Assembly (NCBI RefSeq): GCF_024223415.1
Contig: NZ_CP100500.1
DNA: 64,000 nt
Direction: 5' to 3' (one strand)
Source: Escherichia coli
GTDB taxonomy: Bacteria; Pseudomonadota; Gammaproteobacteria; Enterobacterales; Enterobacteriaceae
Shown piece by piece: positions 53,255 through 60,037 of the stretch (its first letter is position 1; the number at the start of each line of letters is the position of its first letter). The translations under genes were made by a program, and so were the position numbers. Below the pieces are notes generated by a model. It saw nothing but the letters and a program-made list of their open reading frames with translations, ran no database searches and had not been told where the DNA came from.

Positions 53255-53527
53255 ATGAGAATGGACGAACGATACAGTAACGCTGCATACGGCAGCGCAG
53301 GACTTGTTGCGTTCTTTGCCAGCCTGTCACTGCAGGATTGGGGATTTATTATCGGCGTGGCGTTCAGTATCATTCTTGGCGTTCTTACTTATCGCCTTAA
53401 CAAACGGGAGCAGGAAAAACGAACCCGCATATTGCTCGAAATTCTGGAACGAACTAATGCCGGTAATGTTCCGGCTACGGCACATGCTGTGGCTGAGATT
53501 GCGAAAAAGGCACCAAAAGAAATATGA
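53255..53527 (+). CDS. Pinholin (phage 21 S-like) with dual-start motif
   Basis: Starts M-R-M; pattern AYGSAG...W...IGV...LTYRLNKREQEKR resembles S21-type pinholin; precedes SAR endolysin. Confidence 0.6.
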   Translation: MRMDERYSNAAYGSAGLVAFFASLSLQDWGFIIGVAFSIILGVLTYRLNKREQEKRTRILLEILERTNAGNVPATAHAVAEIAKKAPKEI

Positions 53528-53683
53528 CGAATATCCCGGGAGTGAGGGGATAATATACCTTTTAACAAAATCCGGGAACATGAAACGCCCGGAACGTTTC
53601 ATGAGGCATGCCCCGTGGGGAGCAGGGCATAACTGTGCGGAATAGCTTTCATTGTGATATCAATAATCACGGTATTCAAAATA

Positions 53684-54061
53684 TTACGGGCCTGTGGGAT
53701 CAGGTTGTTTTTTGTCTGATTCCAGAGGGAAGGGACGCTGTTTCGGTTCTCTGAACTTTAGTGATAATGAATTGAAAATCCTCATTTTTTGCTGCCATGC
53801 ATAATGTCTGTCCCATGAACAGGGGGGGCTCAATTCTTCATTCACCCATGCGTTAATATCTTGTTTCAGGTGTTGAAGCATACGGGGTGTTAATGCACTC
53901 ATAATAATATCCAGCGTTTTATGCGAGAGTTTACCGTAAGGGTCTGCAAGGATGCTGCTCGTTGCTTCGTTATTATCCACCATAAGTGGAAGTAGCGCTG
54001 ATTTAACTTTTTCTGTCATTAGTTGCAAAAATCTACTGCGCAAATTTTCTTTACTGTTCAT
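53684..54061 (-). CDS. Hypothetical protein on opposite strand inside the lysis cassette
   Basis: 125-aa ORF in the 655-bp gap between pinholin and endolysin. Confidence 0.35.
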   Translation of the reverse strand: MNSKENLRSRFLQLMTEKVKSALLPLMVDNNEATSSILADPYGKLSHKTLDIIMSALTPRMLQHLKQDINAWVNEELSPPCSWDRHYAWQQKMRIFNSLSLKFREPKQRPFPLESDKKQPDPTGP

Positions 54062-54184
54062 TTCTGAAGCCTCATCTGTTGTCGTTTGGTTTTCCTGAAC
54101 GGGTATGTTTATGAGACATGCTGGTACTGGATTATATACCTGATATATCCAGGGTTATAAACCTTTAGATCCTGATAAATATAC

Positions 54185-54718
54185 ATGAACGCAAAAATCA
54201 GATACGGCCTGTCGGCTGCCGTTCTGGCGCTGATTGGTGCTGGCGCATCTGCTCCTCAGATACTTGATCAGTTTCTGGACGAAAAAGAGGGTAACCACAC
54301 AACGGCATACCGCGATGGGTCCGGCATCTGGACCATCTGTCGGGGTGCCACGATGGTGGATGGAAAACCCGTTTTTCCCGGAATGAAGCTGTCGAAGGAA
54401 AAATGCGACCAGGTTAACGCTATTGAACGTGATAAGGCACTGGCATGGGTGGAGCGCAATATTAAAGTACCTCTGACCGAACCACAGAAAGCGGGTATTG
54501 CGTCATTCTGTCCCTATAACATTGGCCCCGGTAAGTGTTTCCCGTCGACGTTTTATAAGCGGCTTAATGCCGGTGATCGAAAAGGCGCCTGCGAGGCGAT
54601 TCGCTGGTGGATAAAGGATGGTGGGCGCGATTGCCGCATACGTTCAAATAACTGCTATGGACAGGTTATTCGTCGTGACCAGGAAAGCGCATTAGCCTGT
54701 TGGGGGATAGATCAGTGA
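54185..54718 (+). CDS. SAR endolysin (phage lysozyme, R21 type)
   Basis: 177 aa; N-terminal Gly/Ala-rich SAR segment [17 protein letters not shown]; catalytic E-x8-D-x5-T in [16 protein letters not shown]. Confidence 0.85.
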
Positions 54719-55182
54719 GCAGAGTCGCCGCGATTATTTATGCTCTGGTTATCTGCATCATCGTCTGCCTGTCGTGGGCGGTCAATCATTACCGTGATAA
54801 CGCCATCGCCTACAAAGAACAGCGAGATAAAAAAGTCAGTGAGCTGAAGCAGGCGACCGCCACCATTACTGACATGCAGCAACGCCAGCGTGCTGCTGAT
54901 GTACTCGATGCTAAATACACGAAGGAGTTAGCTGATGCGAAAGCTAAAAATGATGCTCTTCGGCGCAAGCTTGATAATGGTGGCAGGGTGCTCGTCAAAG
55001 GAAAATGCCCTGTGCCATCCTCAGCCGAAACCTCCAGCGCCTCCGGCATGGGCAATGATGCCACCGTCGAACTCTCTCCAGTTGCTGGACGAAACGTTCT
55101 CGGTGTCCGGGACGGAATTATCCGCGACCAAACAGCACTGAGAACGCTTCAGGAATACATCAGGACGCAATGCCTTCGATGA
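54700..55182 (+). CDS. Rz i-spanin
   Basis: N-terminal TM ([19 protein letters not shown]) then coiled coil; overlaps endolysin stop; exact start uncertain. Confidence 0.75.
54935..55141 (+). CDS. Rz1 o-spanin lipoprotein embedded in Rz
   Basis: +1-frame ORF inside Rz; lipobox VAGC; proline-rich [11 protein letters not shown]. Confidence 0.7.
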
Positions 55183-55400
55183 TAGCGATAATTTTACTCA
55201 TCATCCTTCACATCTGGCTCTGTAGACAGGGTGGTGATCACTTCTGGAGTGAATCCAGATTAAACATCTCATTGCTGATTCTTGATATTGAGCATCTGGC
55301 GCGCGGTAAGGGGCTGCGTTGAGATAAGAGCCAGTCATCACAAACACCAGGATTTAGCCTCGCATTCGCGGGGCTTTTTATTGCAACAAAGGTAAAGACG

Positions 55401-55688
55401 ATGGATGAAGAATATCGTAAAAACCTGCAACTGTGGTTTGGTCTTACGCATGCGTCGTTCTGCGTGATGCCGCGAGTATTCATGGAGGCTATGCCACCAG
55501 AATGGCAAGAGAAGATGGCTCAGTTGCTTTTTGAGTATAGCGACACAATCAAAACGGATGTCTGCGGAGTTCACAGCTGTTTTGTTACTGCCAAAGACGG
55601 CAACAACCGCTTTATGAGGATGCCAGAAGATATTCTGAACTATCGTCATCCCCGACGTGAATTCATCGAATCATTTCTGAAGAAGTAG
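55401..55688 (+). CDS. Hypothetical phage protein (95 aa)
   Basis: ORF downstream of spanins. Confidence 0.4.
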   Translation: MDEEYRKNLQLWFGLTHASFCVMPRVFMEAMPPEWQEKMAQLLFEYSDTIKTDVCGVHSCFVTAKDGNNRFMRMPEDILNYRHPRREFIESFLKK

Positions 55689-56309
55689 CCATTACAAAGC
55701 CTATCTACGGGTGGGCTTGATAATGAAACCAGAATTTATTCTGGGAAACCAGTTACGGCAGTACAGCGAAACAACCCAAGCCAGTAAGTGGGGAAATAAC
55801 ACTGGCAGCCACTGAAAGATGAACCTCCTGCCTTATGGCAAAAAAGATTCTTTGTGGTGGCGGACTGATGGAAAGACATCGGTTATTGCAGAGACCATTC
55901 AATGAGTGGTCTCGACAATGGCTTATACCCTACACGGGATAACTTAACTGATATCCCTTTTAACGGATAAAGGTATTCAAGCCTGACATATCATGCGCTG
56001 TATCGTCGCCGTATTCCCGTATTAACAGAGACCGTAGCCCGACGGGGAACTCCTTCTGCGCGAGTGTGCGGGAATAATCAAAAACGATGCACACCGGGTT
56101 TTTACCGCGTTTATGGTTCGCGGGTTTGTCCCTCATGCTCGCCAGTCCGGTGCGATGGTGGAAGAAACCGGAAGCTGTATTACAGAAAGTGCTACTACTG
56201 TATCCTGATGCGATGTATGTAATGTGAGTCAGATAATGGCACAGGATGTGGTGATGTGGCAGTCTGGAACACAGGATATATTGTCAGAATAAGACCCGTA
56301 GGAATAAAA

Positions 56310-56636
56310 ATGAAAAGACGCCTTTCACTACTTTTTCTGTTATCTGCCCTGGCAGTGGGATGCTCGCAGCAAAAAGCTGATGAGCCCCGGCAATTAGTGA
56401 CGGTGTATCCACGATATCCGGAATATGCTGCAGCAAATTATATCAAGGGGCTGGTTGAGGTTAAGTTCGATATTGGTGCTGACGGGACTGTGACACGGAT
56501 CGTTTTTCTCCGCTCAGAGCCTCATAATTTGTTTCGTGATGAAGTGGTGAAGGCCATGGCGAAATGGAGATTTGAAAAGAATAGTCCCCGTCAGGGAGTG
56601 AAGAGACAATTTATCTTTACGCCATCACGTCCCTGA
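56310..56636 (+). CDS. Lipoprotein with TonB C-terminal-like domain (moron candidate)
   Basis: ATG at 56310: MKRRLSLLFLLSALAVGCSQQ...; C-terminal YPRYPEYAAANYIKGLVEVKFDIGADGTVTRIVFLRSEPHNLFRDEVVKAMAKWRFE fits TonB_C pattern. Confidence 0.6.
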   Translation: MKRRLSLLFLLSALAVGCSQQKADEPRQLVTVYPRYPEYAAANYIKGLVEVKFDIGADGTVTRIVFLRSEPHNLFRDEVVKAMAKWRFEKNSPRQGVKRQFIFTPSRP

Positions 56637-57000
56637 TGCTTCCAGGTAGAGAGGGGCTGGAAGCAGGAGAAAAATGAAAGAGCCAGCGGTTATATTTTTG
56701 TCATGGCTGACGAGAAATGATGGAAGAAGGCGTTGTATGCCACACAACGCCTCACTGTTCATTTCTTCTTTTTCTCTGGTGTAACCCGATGAATAAGAGT
56801 TGCACTGGTTTCCGATGAGATGGCGATATGCTCGGGCAAAGTATGCTGGCAGTTTTCCAACTGGTCAAAAATACCTGCTCTCGTCTGTTGCAATGCCTGC
56901 AGCATGCGGCGGCAATGCGCCTTTGCTTTTGCTAACCATCTTTCCTTACTCTATCAGTCGCTGCGTGAACTCATCATGGAATACCAGGTAAATGCGGATG

Positions 57001-57252
57001 TTATCGGTTTTGGCTACGCAGCATAGTACAAAACGGACAGGTGCATCCCGGAATGGGGGAGGCGTCACATGTCCCTGTGATGGTTGTTCCGGGTAATGCA
57101 CTGTGTGGGGCATAAAAATGTCCGATAATTTTACTTTCTACCGCAGTTAGTTGATTCGTTGGTCCTGGTAGCACATTGGGCGAGGGTTTAAATGCCAGGC
57201 AACTGAAGGATGATGTTGCAAGGGAGATAGCGAGAATATTTCTGATTTTCAT
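57001..57252 (-). CDS. Small secreted cysteine-rich protein (moron candidate)
   Basis: From ATG 57252: MKIRNILAISLATSSFSCLAF... signal peptide; six Cys in mature part. Confidence 0.35.
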   Translation of the reverse strand: MKIRNILAISLATSSFSCLAFKPSPNVLPGPTNQLTAVESKIIGHFYAPHSALPGTTITGTCDASPIPGCTCPFCTMLRSQNR

Positions 57253-57403
57253 TTGATGATGCCTCTGTGTGAAATGACGGTAAACGACGCACTTGTGCCG
57301 GCACATAATAGCAAGCATCAGAATAGATCAGATTCGATTCTTGCTGTAAGTGATAATTATTCTCGTTTTTTTCGGGTCCTTTCCGGCGATCCAACAGGTT
57401 ACG

Positions 57404-57415
57404 GGGCGTCGACCT
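57404..57415 (+). other. cosN cohesive-end site (lambda-type)
   Basis: GGGCGTCGACCT, one mismatch from lambda GGGCGGCGACCT; flanking CTCGCG(C)GTTTTCGCTATTTATGAAAATTTTCCGG also matches lambda cos. Confidence 0.75.
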
Positions 57416-57627: not shown

Positions 57628-58137
57628 GTGGCTACGCAGACTGAAGTTGCCAGGCATTTGAGTCTGACCGATCGCCAGCTTCGCAGACTGCAGAAATTGC
57701 CGGGTGCCCCGATATCGAATAAGCGAGGGCAACTGGATCTGGATGCCTGGCGTGATTTTTACATATCGTATCTGAGAAGAAGTAAAAACGATGTGCCTGA
57801 TGGCGATAGCGAAGACGACTATGAGGAGAAATTGCTTATTGCCAGATGGGAACTGACAGCAGAACAGGCTGTTACACAGCAGTTAAAAAATGAGGTGTCA
57901 AAAGGAAAACTTATTGACACCGGATTCTGTATTTTTGCCCTCAGCAAGCTGGCAATGGCGTTATCCAGTACGCTTGATTCCATCCCTTTATCCATGCAAC
58001 GACAGTTTCCTGATTTAACACCGCGCCATCTTGACCATCTGAAAACCCTTATTGCGAAGGGGGCAAATCAGTGTGCGCGGGCAGGGGATAAATTACCGGA
58101 TTTACTCGATGAATATATCAGAGCAACAACTGAATAA
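57628..58137 (+). CDS. Terminase small subunit (Nu1-like)
   Basis: 169 aa; C-terminal region resembles lambda Nu1 (FPDLTPRHLDHLK... vs lambda FPELENRHVDFLK). Confidence 0.85.
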   Translation: MATQTEVARHLSLTDRQLRRLQKLPGAPISNKRGQLDLDAWRDFYISYLRRSKNDVPDGDSEDDYEEKLLIARWELTAEQAVTQQLKNEVSKGKLIDTGFCIFALSKLAMALSSTLDSIPLSMQRQFPDLTPRHLDHLKTLIAKGANQCARAGDKLPDLLDEYIRATTE

Positions 58138-60037
58138 TATGATGAGTGCTGTCACAACAGCATTACAGCCCCTGATAAGGGCATTGCCGGTGACGGCAGT
58201 TGAATGGGCTGATCAAAATTATTATCTGCCTAAAGAATCTTCATATGGTGAGGGAGAATGGAAAACGCTGCCGTTCCAGATCGCCATCATGAACTGTATG
58301 GGCAACGATCTGATTCGCACTGTTAACCTGATTAAATCTGCCCGTGTTGGTTATACAAAGATGTTGCTGGGGGTGGTCGGGTATTTTATTGAGCATAAAT
58401 CCCGAAACAGTCTGCTTTTTCAGCCCACGGATTCTGCCGCTGAAGATTTTATGAAGTCTCACGTGGAGACGACGATTAGGGACGTGCCATGCCTGAAAGA
58501 CCTTTCCCCATGGCTGGGTCGTAAACATCGTGATAATACCCTCACGCTGAAACGCTTTTCATCGGGCGTCGGTTTCTGGTGCCTGGGCGGCGCTGCCGCC
58601 AAAAACTACCGTGAAAAATCCGTGGACGTGGTCTGCTATGACGAACTCTCATCGTTTGAACCTGATGTTGAAAAAGAGGGCTCGCCAACCCTGCTGGGGG
58701 ATAAGCGTATTGAGGGCTCTGTATGGCCAAAATCCATTCGCGGCTCGACGCCTAAAATCAAAGGCTCCTGCCAGATCGAAAAAGCCGCTAACGAGTCGGC
58801 ACATTTCATGCGTTTTTATGTGCCCTGTCCGCACTGTGGGGAGGAGCAGTATCTGAAATTTGGTGATGATGCCTCGGCTTTCGGTCTTAAGTGGGAGAAG
58901 AATAAGCCAGAAAGTGTTTTCTACCTTTGTGAGCATCATGGCTGTGTGATCCATCAGTCTGAGCTTGACCAGAGTAACGGGCGGTGGATCTGTGAAAACA
59001 CGGGGATGTGGACCCGTGACGGTCTGACGTTTTTCAGCGCCCGGGGTGATGAAATTCCGCCGCCGCGCTCCATCACTTTCCATATCTGGACGGCGTACAG
59101 TCCGTTCACCACCTGGGTACAGATAGTCTATGACTGGCTGGATGCACTGAAAGATCCCAACGGCCTGAAAACCTTTGTGAACACCACGCTGGGCGAGACC
59201 TGGGAAGAGGCCGTGGGCGAAAAACTCGATCACCAGGTACTGATGGATAAGGTTGTGCGTTACACGGCGGCGGTGCCTGCCCGGGTGGTTTATCTGACGG
59301 CGGGCATTGACTCGCAGCGAAACCGTTTTGAGATGTATGTCTGGGGATGGGCTCCGGGAGAGGAAGCCTTTCTGGTGGATAAAATCATCATTATGGGACG
59401 TCCCGATGAGGAAGAGACGCTGTTACGTGTGGATGCGGCGATCAACAAAAAATACTGCCATGCAGACGGAACCGAAATGACCATTTCCCGTGTCTGCTGG
59501 GACATCGGGGGGATCGATGGCGAAATCGTTTATCAGAGGTCAAAAAAACACGGTGTTTTCCGGGTGCTGCCGGTAAAAGGCGCATCTGTCTATGGCAAGC
59601 CGGTGATCACCATGCCAAAAACCCGCAATCAGCGGGGCGTGTATCTGTGTGAAGTGGGGACGGACACCGCAAAAGAAATTCTCTATGCCCGTATGAAAGC
59701 CGCTCCCACGCCTGCGGATGAATCCACGTCGTATGCCATCCGTTTTCCTGATGATCCGGAGATTTTTTCGCAGACAGAGGCGCAGCAACTGGTCGCGGAA
59801 GAGCTTGTGGAGAAGTGGGAAAAAGGAAAGATGCGTCTGCTGTGGGATAACAAAAAGCGGCGTAACGAAGCGCTGGACTGCCTGGTGTATGCCTACGCGG
59901 CATTACGTGTGTCCGTGCAACGCTGGCAGCTTGATCTGGCTGTACTGGCAAAATCCCGGGAAGAAGAGACGACCCGGCCAACCCTTAAAGAACTGGCAGC
60001 GAAGCTGTCCGGAGGAGTGAATGGTTACAGTCGCTGA
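58109..60037 (+). CDS. Terminase large subunit (gpA-like)
   Basis: MNISEQQLNN...TAVEWADQNYYLPKESSYGEGEWKTLPFQIAIMN...; 642 aa. Confidence 0.92.
   Translation: MNISEQQLNNMMSAVTTALQPLIRALPVTAVEWADQNYYLPKESSYGEGEWKTLPFQIAIMNCMGNDLIRTVNLIKSARVGYTKMLLGVVGYFIEHKSRNSLLFQPTDSAAEDFMKSHVETTIRDVPCLKDLSPWLGRKHRDNTLTLKRFSSGVGFWCLGGAAAKNYREKSVDVVCYDELSSFEPDVEKEGSPTLLGDKRIEGSVWPKSIRGSTPKIKGSCQIEKAANESAHFMRFYVPCPHCGEEQYLKFGDDASAFGLKWEKNKPESVFYLCEHHGCVIHQSELDQSNGRWICENTGMWTRDGLTFFSARGDEIPPPRSITFHIWTAYSPFTTWVQIVYDWLDALKDPNGLKTFVNTTLGETWEEAVGEKLDHQVLMDKVVRYTAAVPARVVYLTAGIDSQRNRFEMYVWGWAPGEEAFLVDKIIIMGRPDEEETLLRVDAAINKKYCHADGTEMTISRVCWDIGGIDGEIVYQRSKKHGVFRVLPVKGASVYGKPVITMPKTRNQRGVYLCEVGTDTAKEILYARMKAAPTPADESTSYAIRFPDDPEIFSQTEAQQLVAEELVEKWEKGKMRLLWDNKKRRNEALDCLVYAYAALRVSVQRWQLDLAVLAKSREEETTRPTLKELAAKLSGGVNGYSR

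What the first reader, a model, noticed from the sequence alone, without database searches (positions are those of the whole stretch)
56310..56636. Prophage-encoded lipoprotein with a TonB C-terminal-like domain between lysis genes and cos
A 108-aa lipoprotein (lipobox AVGC) whose mature part fits the TonB C-terminal domain pattern (YP...A....G.V.V.F.V..DG.V..V.V..S....F...A..A...WRF) sits in a classic moron position. A free periplasmic TonB-C domain anchored to a membrane could compete with host TonB for TonB-box receptors and block TonB-dependent phages or colicins, by analogy with the Cor and Llp exclusion lipoproteins. This mechanism is speculative.
Basis: partly seen in the sequence, partly recalled or inferred. 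Interest (0 to 1): 0.65.

Follow-up and report, generated by a model that had tools for sequence, protein, structure and literature searches.

The report
Phage lipoprotein carrying a TonB end-domain
A lambdoid prophage gene found in about 30% of complete E. coli genomes encodes a small lipoprotein, predicted to sit in the outer membrane, made of a copy of the receptor-docking end of the host protein TonB; it probably acts as an unpowered decoy for TonB-dependent uptake, but this has never been tested.

Summary
Window 56310..56636 (+) encodes a 108-aa protein with a lipoprotein signal peptide (Cys18, Ser at +2, so predicted outer membrane). A seven-residue tether leads to a complete TonB C-terminal domain: Pfam TonB_C E 3e-13, 41% identity to E. 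coli TonB 150-230, and an AlphaFold model 1.0 A from PDB 1u07 and 2gsk. It lies after holin, endolysin and Rz/Rz1 and 770 bp before cosN.

It is not new as a gene. It is gp73 of phage 21 ("TonB C-terminal domain protein") and "TonB fragment" of phage Perceval, and occurs in 1615 of 5426 complete E. coli genomes.

It is not a dead fragment. dN/dS is 0.12 between the two E. coli alleles, all 80 viral copies are intact, and the lipobox is kept down to 38% identity. Homologues sit in the same slot on three phage backbones.

Published RNA-seq shows the 97.8%-identical Perceval gene is transcribed in the lysogen while its neighbours are silent.

No functional study was found. The decoy mechanism is plausible: engineered periplasmic TonB fragments block TonB-dependent transport, and a fusion model places the BtuB Ton box as a beta-strand. 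It remains inferred. Verdict: known gene, unknown function, cheaply testable hypothesis.

The parts
56310..56636 (+). Gene for the 108-aa TonB-C lipoprotein (phage 21 gp73 / Perceval PERCE_65 homologue)
   Evidence: ORF and translation. 98% DNA identity to phage 21, ev017 and Perceval. Annotated 'TonB family protein' in RefSeq. dN/dS 0.117 against the 73% allele.
56300..56303 (+). Shine-Dalgarno AGGA, 6 nt upstream of the ATG
   Evidence: Read from the sequence. Phage 21 annotates a ribosome-binding site at the equivalent position.
56310..56363 (+). Lipoprotein signal peptide: MKRR n-region, hydrophobic core, lipobox LAVG|C18. Ser19 at +2 predicts outer-membrane sorting.
   Evidence: The PROSITE-type pattern matches residues 8-18. 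Cys18 is invariant in alignment A3. Homologues carry LVMGC, FLMGC, LLLGC, LISAC and LLVGC.
56385..56618 (+). TonB C-terminal domain, residues 26-103, equivalent to E. coli TonB P153-F230 and including strand beta3 (residues 94-103)
   Evidence: Invariant residues P26, P34, Y36, G59, P71, F75 and W86.
56712..56777 (+). Long hairpin (56712-56767) followed by a U-rich run; candidate terminator of the cassette
   Evidence: RNA fold -27.2 kcal/mol, z -2.2. The strict terminator scan did not call it.
55994..57403 (.). Conserved 1.4-kb block shared at 96% with phage 21 and Perceval. It carries the gene and runs to the right cohesive end.
   Evidence: blastn of the window against L001 and L010.
57374..57380 (+). 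cosQ (GGGTCCT)
   Evidence: Phage 21 annotation transferred to the window.
57404..57415 (+). cosN 12-nt cohesive end (GGGCGTCGACCT). The phage 21 linear record ends at window 57403.
53255..55182 (+). Upstream lysis cassette: holin 53255-53527, endolysin 54185-54718, Rz 54700-55182, embedded Rz1 54935-55141
   Evidence: PHROG hits phrog_1350, phrog_7, phrog_13 and phrog_3198.
57628..60037 (+). Downstream terminase small subunit (57628-58137) and large subunit (58052-60037)
   Evidence: PHROG phrog_57 and phrog_1790. RefSeq annotation of the matching prophage.

Best explanation

A tether of only seven residues would hold a complete TonB C-terminal domain directly under the TonB-dependent transporters. 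The protein has no N-terminal membrane anchor and no proline-rich spacer, so it cannot be energised by ExbB/ExbD.

It is proposed to bind exposed Ton boxes of transporters (FhuA, FepA, Cir, BtuB and others), and of group B colicins, by beta-strand addition to its free beta3 edge. This would compete with the scarce host TonB. The result would be dampened TonB-dependent entry of phages (T1 and phi80 type), colicins, microcins and siderophore-linked antibiotics, at some cost to siderophore and vitamin B12 uptake.

A weak promoter of its own expresses it in the lysogen. It should also be read through from the late promoter during lytic growth.

Shown here or in the literature: gene anatomy, homology, fold, purifying selection, prevalence and transcription in a lysogen. 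Inferred: lipidation, outer-membrane location, Ton-box binding, and every phenotype.
For: - Homology and fold match the E. coli TonB CTD.
- Core TonB residues are retained: Y163/P164, F180, G186, F202, W213 and F230 correspond to Y36/P37, F53, G59, F75, W86 and F103. The beta3 strand is present, with no beta4 after it.
- The lipobox is conserved, with S, T or A at +2, in homologues down to 38% identity.
- Selection is purifying: dN/dS 0.117 at dS 1.48, and 80 of 80 viral copies are intact.
- Homologues lie between the lysis cassette and the terminase on three different phage backbones: lambda/21-like, HK97-like (L003, L018) and P22-like terminase (L015).
- The near-identical Perceval gene is transcribed in lysogens at log2 fpkm 5.0-6.6. 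Flanking Rz and TerS are at 2.3-4.3 (PMC9928086).
- There is experimental precedent. Secreted TonB fragments 33-239, 103-239 and 122-239 inhibit TonB-dependent activity (bioRxiv 10.1101/2020.01.05.895219; Howard et al. 2001, reference found).
- In an AF2 model of the mature domain joined by a 25-aa Gly-Ser linker to BtuB residues 1-20, the Ton box DTLVVT is a beta-strand. The 10-residue block that contains it has pLDDT 73; the linker has 39-46.
Against: - No phenotype is reported anywhere in the searched literature.
- The docking model had no negative control, and AF2 may simply recall 2GSK/2GRX. Only the best of five models was inspected.
- The TonB residues genetically or structurally tied to Ton-box and cork contact, Q160 and R166, are both Tyr here (Y33, Y39).
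- No consensus sigma-70 promoter and no Fur box lie upstream. Lysogenic transcription is moderate, whereas transporters greatly outnumber TonB, so full titration of Ton boxes is unlikely.
- The gene is in 30% of complete E. coli genomes, with up to 4 copies, including pathogens that depend on siderophores. A strong global TonB block would be costly.
- Small homologous lipoproteins also occur in ordinary chromosomal contexts (L006 next to ahpCF; L012/L013), so the family is not restricted to phage defence.
- There is no PADLOC hit.
- Whether a 7-residue tether allows the TonB-Ton-box geometry was not tested.
Confidence: 0.4

Rival explanations
1. It is a specific rather than a general blocker. 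One version: it docks on the periplasmic face of one particular transporter and shuts it allosterically, as T5 Llp does with FhuA. The other version: it pairs with the C-terminal domain of host TonB itself, by the strand-exchange dimerisation seen in TonB CTD crystals. That would poison the few TonB molecules rather than the many receptors.
For: - Llp is an outer-membrane inner-leaflet lipoprotein that binds the periplasmic plug surface of FhuA and blocks phages, ferrichrome and colicin M (bioRxiv 10.64898/2026.03.26.714494).
- The Tyr substitutions at the Q160 and R166 positions are conserved within the phage-type lipoproteins (Y or H at position 39). This suggests an altered partner surface.
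- High prevalence is easier to reconcile with a narrow target.
- TonB is scarce relative to receptors (established knowledge).
Against: Nothing in the sequence points to a particular receptor. The domain is a close copy of the generic TonB CTD. No co-variation with a tail-tip receptor type was examined.
Confidence: 0.2
2. It is an envelope-conversion lipoprotein unrelated to TonB traffic. The domain would bind peptidoglycan or another periplasmic or imported ligand, and would change envelope robustness, serum resistance or host interaction, like the neighbouring moron Bor.
For: - It occupies the slot next to bor in phage 21 and Perceval.
- TonB_C domains can bind partners other than Ton boxes, for example the FusB CTD with ferredoxin (PDB 9hi3, listed).
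- Peptidoglycan binding by the TonB CTD has been reported (recalled from the literature, not checked here).
- Chromosomal homologues occur in non-phage contexts.
Against: Unlike bor, its transcript did not respond to macrophage conditions (log2FC 0.26, not significant). No specific ligand is suggested by the data. The conservation pattern mirrors the TonB core and its Ton-box-binding strand.
Confidence: 0.12
3. It is a lysis accessory, as implied by the PHROG 1267 label 'Rz-like spanin'. On this reading it is made late, together with holin, endolysin and spanins, and helps disrupt the envelope.
For: It lies immediately downstream of, and co-oriented with, the lysis cassette on three phage backbones. 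PHROG 1267 carries the spanin label, E 2e-40.
Against: A complete Rz/Rz1 pair is already present. The protein is a folded 90-aa domain, not a short proline-rich o-spanin, and is not embedded in an i-spanin gene. It is transcribed in the lysogen independently of Rz. The PHROG label probably comes from position and lipobox alone.
Confidence: 0.05
4. It is a decaying fragment of a captured tonB gene with no function, as the database names 'TonB fragment' and 'partial tonB-like' imply.
For: It has only 41% identity to host TonB and lacks two-thirds of the protein.
Against: - dN/dS is 0.12 across saturated synonymous sites.
- All 80 viral copies are intact.
- 1611 of 1615 genomes hold a copy covering at least 80% of the gene.
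- It has an acquired, conserved lipoprotein signal peptide.
- It is transcribed on its own.
Confidence: 0.02

Closest known systems
C-terminal domain of the energy transducer TonB (Pfam PF03544; E. coli TonB 150-239; PDB 1u07, 1xx3, 2gsk, 2grx)
   Same: The domain shares about 40% identity and an alpha/beta fold at 1.0 A rmsd. It keeps the YP motif, F180, G186, F202, W213 and F230, and the beta3 strand that pairs with Ton boxes.
   Different: There is no N-terminal transmembrane anchor and no proline-rich spacer, so it cannot couple to ExbB/ExbD. It has a lipoprotein signal peptide instead, and is therefore predicted to be fixed to the outer, not the inner, membrane. Q160 and R166 are replaced by Tyr. 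It ends five residues after beta3.
Engineered periplasmic TonB fragments (Howard, Herrmann, Stratilo and Braun 2001; Postle laboratory ompT(ss)-TonB33-239)
   Same: Both are an exported TonB C-terminal region without energy coupling. The engineered fragments inhibit TonB-dependent transport.
   Different: Those are laboratory constructs. They are soluble, longer and overexpressed. This one is natural, lipid-anchored, minimal, and expressed from a prophage.
Phage superinfection-exclusion lipoproteins Llp (T5) and Cor (T1, phi80, N15, HK022)
   Same: All are small phage-encoded lipoproteins of the outer-membrane inner leaflet. Llp and Cor inactivate a TonB-dependent transporter from the periplasmic side (for Cor and Llp as receptor blockers).
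   Different: The only Pfam and PHROG matches here are TonB_C families. Llp and Cor are specific for FhuA. They are encoded next to the receptor-binding protein gene, not between the lysis genes and cos.
Lambda Bor / Iss lipoprotein moron
   Same: Both are outer-membrane lipoprotein morons in the lysis-to-cos interval, expressed in the lysogen. Bor lies adjacent to this gene in phage 21 and Perceval.
   Different: Bor is an unrelated protein on the opposite strand, with a serum-resistance role, and it is strongly induced in DMEM and macrophage conditions, which this gene is not.
TolA domain III
   Same: It has a related fold that also binds partners by beta-strand addition. The matches are weak Foldseek hits (2x9a, 3qdr, 6s3w).
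   Different: It is only a distant structural relative (TM about 0.4, E above 0.1), not a sequence relative.

Membership tests
TonB_C domain family (PF03544 / TIGR01352) | Profile HMM match above the curated threshold | tested here: met
   PF03544 E 3.2e-13. TIGR01352 scores 48.6 bits against a cut-off of 27.1.
TonB_C domain family (PF03544 / TIGR01352) | TonB CTD fold (three-stranded sheet plus two helices) | tested here: met
   The AF2 domain has pLDDT above 95. Foldseek TM 0.90-0.92 and rmsd 1.0 A to 1u07 and 2gsk_B.
TonB_C domain family (PF03544 / TIGR01352) | Binds Ton-box peptides by beta-strand addition to beta3 | tested here: inconclusive
   The AF2 fusion model puts BtuB DTLVVT into a strand; the 10-residue block containing it has pLDDT 73. 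There was no negative control and no biochemistry.
Energy transducer TonB (NCBIfam equivalogs NF008081-NF008084) | Full-length architecture: N-terminal transmembrane anchor coupling to ExbB/ExbD, then a proline-rich spacer, then the CTD; score above the equivalog cut-off | tested here: not met
   The best score is 66.8 bits against a cut-off of 265. Only profile positions 152-224 of 242 are matched, and the protein is 108 aa.
Bacterial lipoprotein (signal peptidase II substrate) | Basic n-region, hydrophobic core, and lipobox ending in Cys within the first 35 residues | tested here: met
   The pattern matches residues 8-18, LFLLSALAVGC. Cys18 is invariant across A3.
Bacterial lipoprotein (signal peptidase II substrate) | Actual acylation and outer-membrane localisation | not testable with these tools
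   This is inferred from Ser at +2 (no Asp retention signal; the established +2 rule). It needs globomycin or palmitate labelling and fractionation.
Phage moron (lysogenic-conversion cassette) | Transcribed in the lysogen independently of neighbouring lytic genes | tested here: met
   The evidence is indirect, from the 97.8%-identical Perceval gene. LF82_160 is 8-fold above prophage background, at log2 fpkm 5.0-6.6, whereas Rz and TerS are at 2.3-4.3 (PMC9928086).
Phage moron (lysogenic-conversion cassette) | Own promoter and terminator flanking the gene | tested here: inconclusive
   There is no consensus sigma-70 site on the + strand; the best candidate is a weak GTGGCA-15-TATATT at 56256-56282. 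A downstream hairpin with a U-run lies at 56712-56777.
Cor / Llp superinfection-exclusion lipoproteins | Sequence or fold relationship to Cor or Llp, and a location beside the receptor-binding tail gene | tested here: not met
   The only Pfam and PHROG matches are TonB_C families; no direct comparison with Cor or Llp was run. The gene lies between Rz and cos, not near gene J.
Spanins (PHROG 1267 label 'Rz-like spanin') | An o-spanin is a short proline-rich lipoprotein embedded in, or overlapping, its i-spanin gene | tested here: not met
   A separate Rz/Rz1 pair is present at 54700-55182 and 54935-55141. This protein is a folded TonB_C domain lying 1.1 kb downstream.
Known anti-phage defence systems (PADLOC-DB 2.0) | Match to any defence-system protein model | tested here: not met
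   0 families at E up to 1.

The most novel reading that the evidence does not exclude
This would be a natural, phage-borne dominant-negative TonB. It would be an outer-membrane-tethered TonB head domain, carried by roughly 30% of complete E. coli genomes, that throttles TonB-dependent entry. It would then act as a broad shield against TonB-dependent phages, group B colicins and microcins, and might shift susceptibility to siderophore-linked antibiotics. In the phage 21 lineage the TonB-independent SitABCD iron/manganese importer rides on the same phage, which could offset the cost in iron uptake.
Probability: 0.3. Interest if true: 0.75.

Novelty: new variant of a known kind. Interest (0 to 1): 0.5.

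Why it matters
If the decoy mechanism is right, a very common prophage gene tunes the main gated entry route of the E. coli outer membrane. That would affect several things:
- which phages and bacteriocins can kill a strain;
- iron and vitamin B12 acquisition;
- possibly uptake of Trojan-horse antibiotics that use TonB-dependent transporters.

It would also be a new exclusion principle. The phage would copy the host's own docking domain and anchor it on the opposite membrane, rather than evolving a receptor-specific blocker such as Llp or Cor.

If the mechanism is wrong, the gene is still one of the most widespread uncharacterised lysogenic-conversion genes of E. coli, and it is currently mislabelled as a 'fragment' or a 'spanin'.

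Tried and rejected
- **Literature.** Seven full-text searches for any functional study found none. The terms covered TonB with prophage, lipoprotein or superinfection exclusion; phage 21; TonB-like; moron; and colicin tolerance. The only relevant items were the LF82 transcriptome paper and papers on engineered TonB fragments. Howard 2001 itself is not held.
- **Iron regulation.** No Fur-box-like site lies near the gene. The best matches, 14-15 of 19, are elsewhere.
- **Own promoter.** No consensus sigma-70 site lies upstream on the + strand.
- **Defence-system membership.** There is no PADLOC hit.
- **Spanin reading.** Rejected, because a true Rz/Rz1 pair is present.
- **Dead-fragment reading.** Rejected by dN/dS and the intactness of all copies.
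- **Host tonB in the window.** It is absent, so a recent local duplication is excluded.
- **Functional link with sitABCD.** All 7 phage records with this allele carry sit. However, 20 sit-positive phage records lack the gene. The 70% allele phages lack sit, and so does the closest prophage, in strain Ch1. The link may simply reflect shared descent.
- **Viral-contig scan.** The scan with the broad alignment A1 failed because no stretch was conserved enough. The narrower A3 returned only close E. coli relatives among the best 80.
- **Coordinate error.** My first dN/dS run used coordinates off by one and was discarded.

Full report
**Observation**

It runs from 56310 to 56636 on the + strand, with an AGGA ribosome-binding site at 56300-56303, and encodes 108 residues. 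The longer GTG-initiated reading (56256) is not used by RefSeq or by any homologue.

The N-terminus MKRRLSLLFLLSALAVGC matches the PROSITE-type lipoprotein pattern, with the lipidated Cys at residue 18. Residue +2 is Ser. By the established +2 rule this means Lol-dependent transfer to the outer membrane.

Only seven residues (S19-E25) separate the Cys from the first residue of the folded domain.

**Domain identity**

Residues 26-103 form a TonB C-terminal domain.
- Pfam PF03544 gives E 3.2e-13.
- TIGR01352 scores 48.6 bits against a cut-off of 27.1.
- phmmer to the E. coli TonB CTD 1u07 gives E 2.3e-14.
- Identity to E. coli TonB 150-230 is 40.7%.

An AlphaFold2 model built on a 26-sequence alignment has pLDDT above 95 over the domain. 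It superposes on 1u07_A, 2gsk_B and 2grx_C with target-normalised TM 0.90-0.92 and rmsd 1.0-1.2 A. The refutation criterion 'no TonB_C fold' is therefore not met.

With the offset query n = TonB n+127, the conserved TonB residues map as follows:

| TonB residue | Residue here |
|---|---|
| Y163 / P164 | Y36 / P37 |
| F180 | F53 |
| G186 | G59 |
| F202 | F75 |
| W213 | W86 |
| F230 | F103 |

Y215 is conservatively replaced by F88. Strand beta3, which pairs with Ton boxes in the BtuB and FhuA complexes, is present (residues 94-103). It is followed by only five residues containing two prolines, so its edge is not covered by a beta4 strand.

There are two notable differences. TonB Q160 and R166 are both Tyr here (Y33, Y39), and a Tyr or His at position 39 is typical of the phage-type lipoproteins.

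The protein fails the full-length TonB equivalog models (66.8 bits against 265). It has no membrane anchor and no proline-rich spacer.

**Genomic setting**

Upstream lie a holin, an endolysin, Rz and embedded Rz1. Downstream lie cosQ (57374-57380), the cohesive end GGGCGTCGACCT (57404-57415) and the terminase genes.

A 1.4-kb block (55994-57403) is 96% identical to the right end of phage 21 and of phage Perceval. A long hairpin followed by a U-rich run at 56712-56777 (-27 kcal/mol, z -2.2) is a plausible terminator.

No consensus sigma-70 promoter and no Fur box were found upstream.

**The gene is already known**

It is gp73 of phage 21, annotated 'TonB C-terminal domain protein'. It is PERCE_65, 'TonB fragment', in Perceval. 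It is named 'partial tonB-like membrane protein' in ev017 and 'TonB family protein' in RefSeq.

It occurs in 1615 of 5426 complete E. coli genomes: 1224 carry the allele at 95% identity or more, and 391 carry a roughly 73% allele. There are up to four copies per genome.

The exact protein is on at least 999 contigs, and always carries generic names.

PHROG 1267, which it matches at E 2e-40, is labelled 'Rz-like spanin'. That label is wrong here, because a genuine Rz/Rz1 pair is present.

**It is a functional gene, not a fragment**
- Between the window allele and the O157:H7 allele, dN/dS is 0.117 with dS 1.48. Against phage 21 it is 0.24.
- All 80 viral-contig copies retrieved are intact 108-codon ORFs with the lipobox.
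- A search of 1.84 billion cluster representatives found a wider family of 107-133-aa proteins at 35-45% identity. Most of them have a lipobox followed directly by a TonB_C domain.
- Homologues sit between the lysis cassette and the terminase in an HK97-type phage (L003, after a DUF2514 spanin and before HNH/TerS/TerL). They do so too in the O157:H7 prophage with HNH and terminase (L018). The same is seen in a phage with a P22-type terminase (L015), and a 41% homologue is present in a Klebsiella phage.
- Other members are chromosomal, for example next to ahpCF in L006 and in L012/L013.

**Expression**

The LF82 study (PMC9928086) lists Perceval LF82_160, 'TonB fragment', among genes transcribed at least 5-fold (here 8-fold) above prophage background in the lysogen.

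Its supplementary table gives log2 fpkm 5.0-6.6 in all conditions. The adjacent Rz and small terminase genes are at 2.3-4.3. There is no significant change in macrophages (log2FC 0.26), whereas bor is strongly induced.

The Perceval gene is 97.8% identical in DNA to the window gene. The moron status is thus supported by data, though for a near-identical copy rather than for this window.

Because the gene is co-oriented with the late operon, it should also be transcribed by read-through late in lytic growth. This is an inference.

**Mechanism**

The best-supported model is an unpowered, outer-membrane-tethered TonB head that binds Ton boxes and competes with host TonB. Four lines of support:
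1. The domain is a faithful TonB CTD.
2. Its predicted location places it next to the periplasmic face of the transporters.
3. Engineered periplasmic TonB fragments (33-239, 103-239, 122-239) inhibit TonB-dependent activity (Howard et al. 2001, reference).
4. An AF2 model was built of the mature domain joined by a 25-residue Gly-Ser linker to BtuB residues 1-20. In it, exactly the Ton box DTLVVT (construct residues 121-126) is predicted as a beta-strand. The 10-residue block containing it has pLDDT 73, against 39-46 for the linker.

Weaknesses:
- The docking test had no negative control and may reflect memorised complexes.
- The Q160 and R166 equivalents differ from TonB.
- Lysogenic expression is moderate, while transporters outnumber TonB.
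- The very high prevalence argues against a strong global block.
- Chromosomal homologues suggest the family has uses beyond phage defence.
- No phenotype has been published.

I give this model a confidence of 0.4.

**Rivals**
- A narrow, Llp-like block of a single transporter, or poisoning of TonB itself by heterodimerisation (0.2; one search gives the Llp precedent).
- An envelope or ligand-binding conversion factor unrelated to TonB traffic (0.12). The FusB CTD-ferredoxin structure shows that TonB_C domains can bind other partners.
- A lysis accessory (0.05).
- A dead fragment (0.02; effectively refuted).

**Comparison with known systems**

The protein is a member of the TonB_C domain family. 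It is not a TonB energy transducer. Its only Pfam and PHROG matches are TonB_C families, so no relationship to Cor, Llp or Bor was detected, although no direct comparison was run. It is not a spanin and is not in PADLOC.

Functionally it would resemble Llp and Cor: a phage lipoprotein of the outer-membrane inner leaflet acting on TonB-dependent transporters. It would use a captured host domain and would probably have a broader target range.

**Verdict**

I rate the novelty as a new variant of a known kind, and the interest as moderate (0.5), because a simple experiment on a gene present in about 30% of complete E. coli genomes could reveal a new exclusion principle.

Noticed in passing
window 56437-56464 (- strand); L018 5127-5154: An antisense promoter-like site (TTAACC, 16 nt, TATAAT with an upstream TG, 10 of 12) lies inside the gene. 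It is at the same codon position in the 73% O157:H7 allele (TTCACA, 16 nt, TATAAT, 11 of 12). It points towards the 58-aa minus-strand ORF 55960-56136, which RefSeq annotates as hypothetical. It may be a by-product of the conserved ANYIKG codons.
   Followed up: partly
phage 21 record OL657228.1 21967-24502 (L019 9968-12001); outside the window: All 7 phage records with the 96% allele of this gene also carry the sitABCD iron/manganese importer: phage 21, Perceval, ev017 (two records), PhiR47_2, PhiR57_1 and PhiR63_2. However, 20 other sit-positive phage records lack the gene. The 70% allele phages and the closest prophage (strain Ch1) lack sit. The link may be shared descent or compensation for reduced TonB-dependent iron uptake.
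   Followed up: partly
window 55356-55375 (+); L003 1092-1111: A terminator-like hairpin, AGCCTCGCATTCGCGGGGCT followed by TTTTATT, lies just after Rz. It recurs almost identically (AGCCTCGCACTTGCGGGGCT TTTTACT) in L003, a phage on a different (HK97-type) backbone that also carries a TonB-C lipoprotein homologue.
   Followed up: no
window 55401-55688 (+): This 95-aa ORF matches only the C-terminal part (positions 139-230 of 233) of PHROG 3527, which has no known function. It is probably a truncated remnant lying between Rz and the conserved cassette. The interval 55385-55903 is the only part of this region not shared with the closest prophage, in strain Ch1.
   Followed up: partly
window 56675-56797 (+): The small ORF annotated as gp74 in phage 21 overlaps the long hairpin at 56712-56767. 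It is more likely non-coding terminator sequence than a gene.
   Followed up: no
PHROG 1267 (database label): PHROG 1267 is labelled 'Rz-like spanin', but the window protein matches it full-length at E 2e-40 and is a lipoprotein carrying a TonB_C domain. The label looks like an annotation error that will propagate to phage genome annotations.
   Followed up: partly
window 52686-52839 (+): Two phage tRNA genes (tRNA-Met CAT and tRNA-Lys TTT) lie upstream of the lysis cassette. In the matching Ch1 prophage they follow the antiterminator Q gene, and RefSeq calls the first of the pair there tRNA-Ile.
   Followed up: no
L011 (E. coli strain Ch1) 1150-5895; outside the window: In strain Ch1 the closely related prophage is integrated beside ompW, only about 3 kb from the host tonB gene. 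The window itself does not contain tonB, and its prophage has a different left arm.
   Followed up: partly
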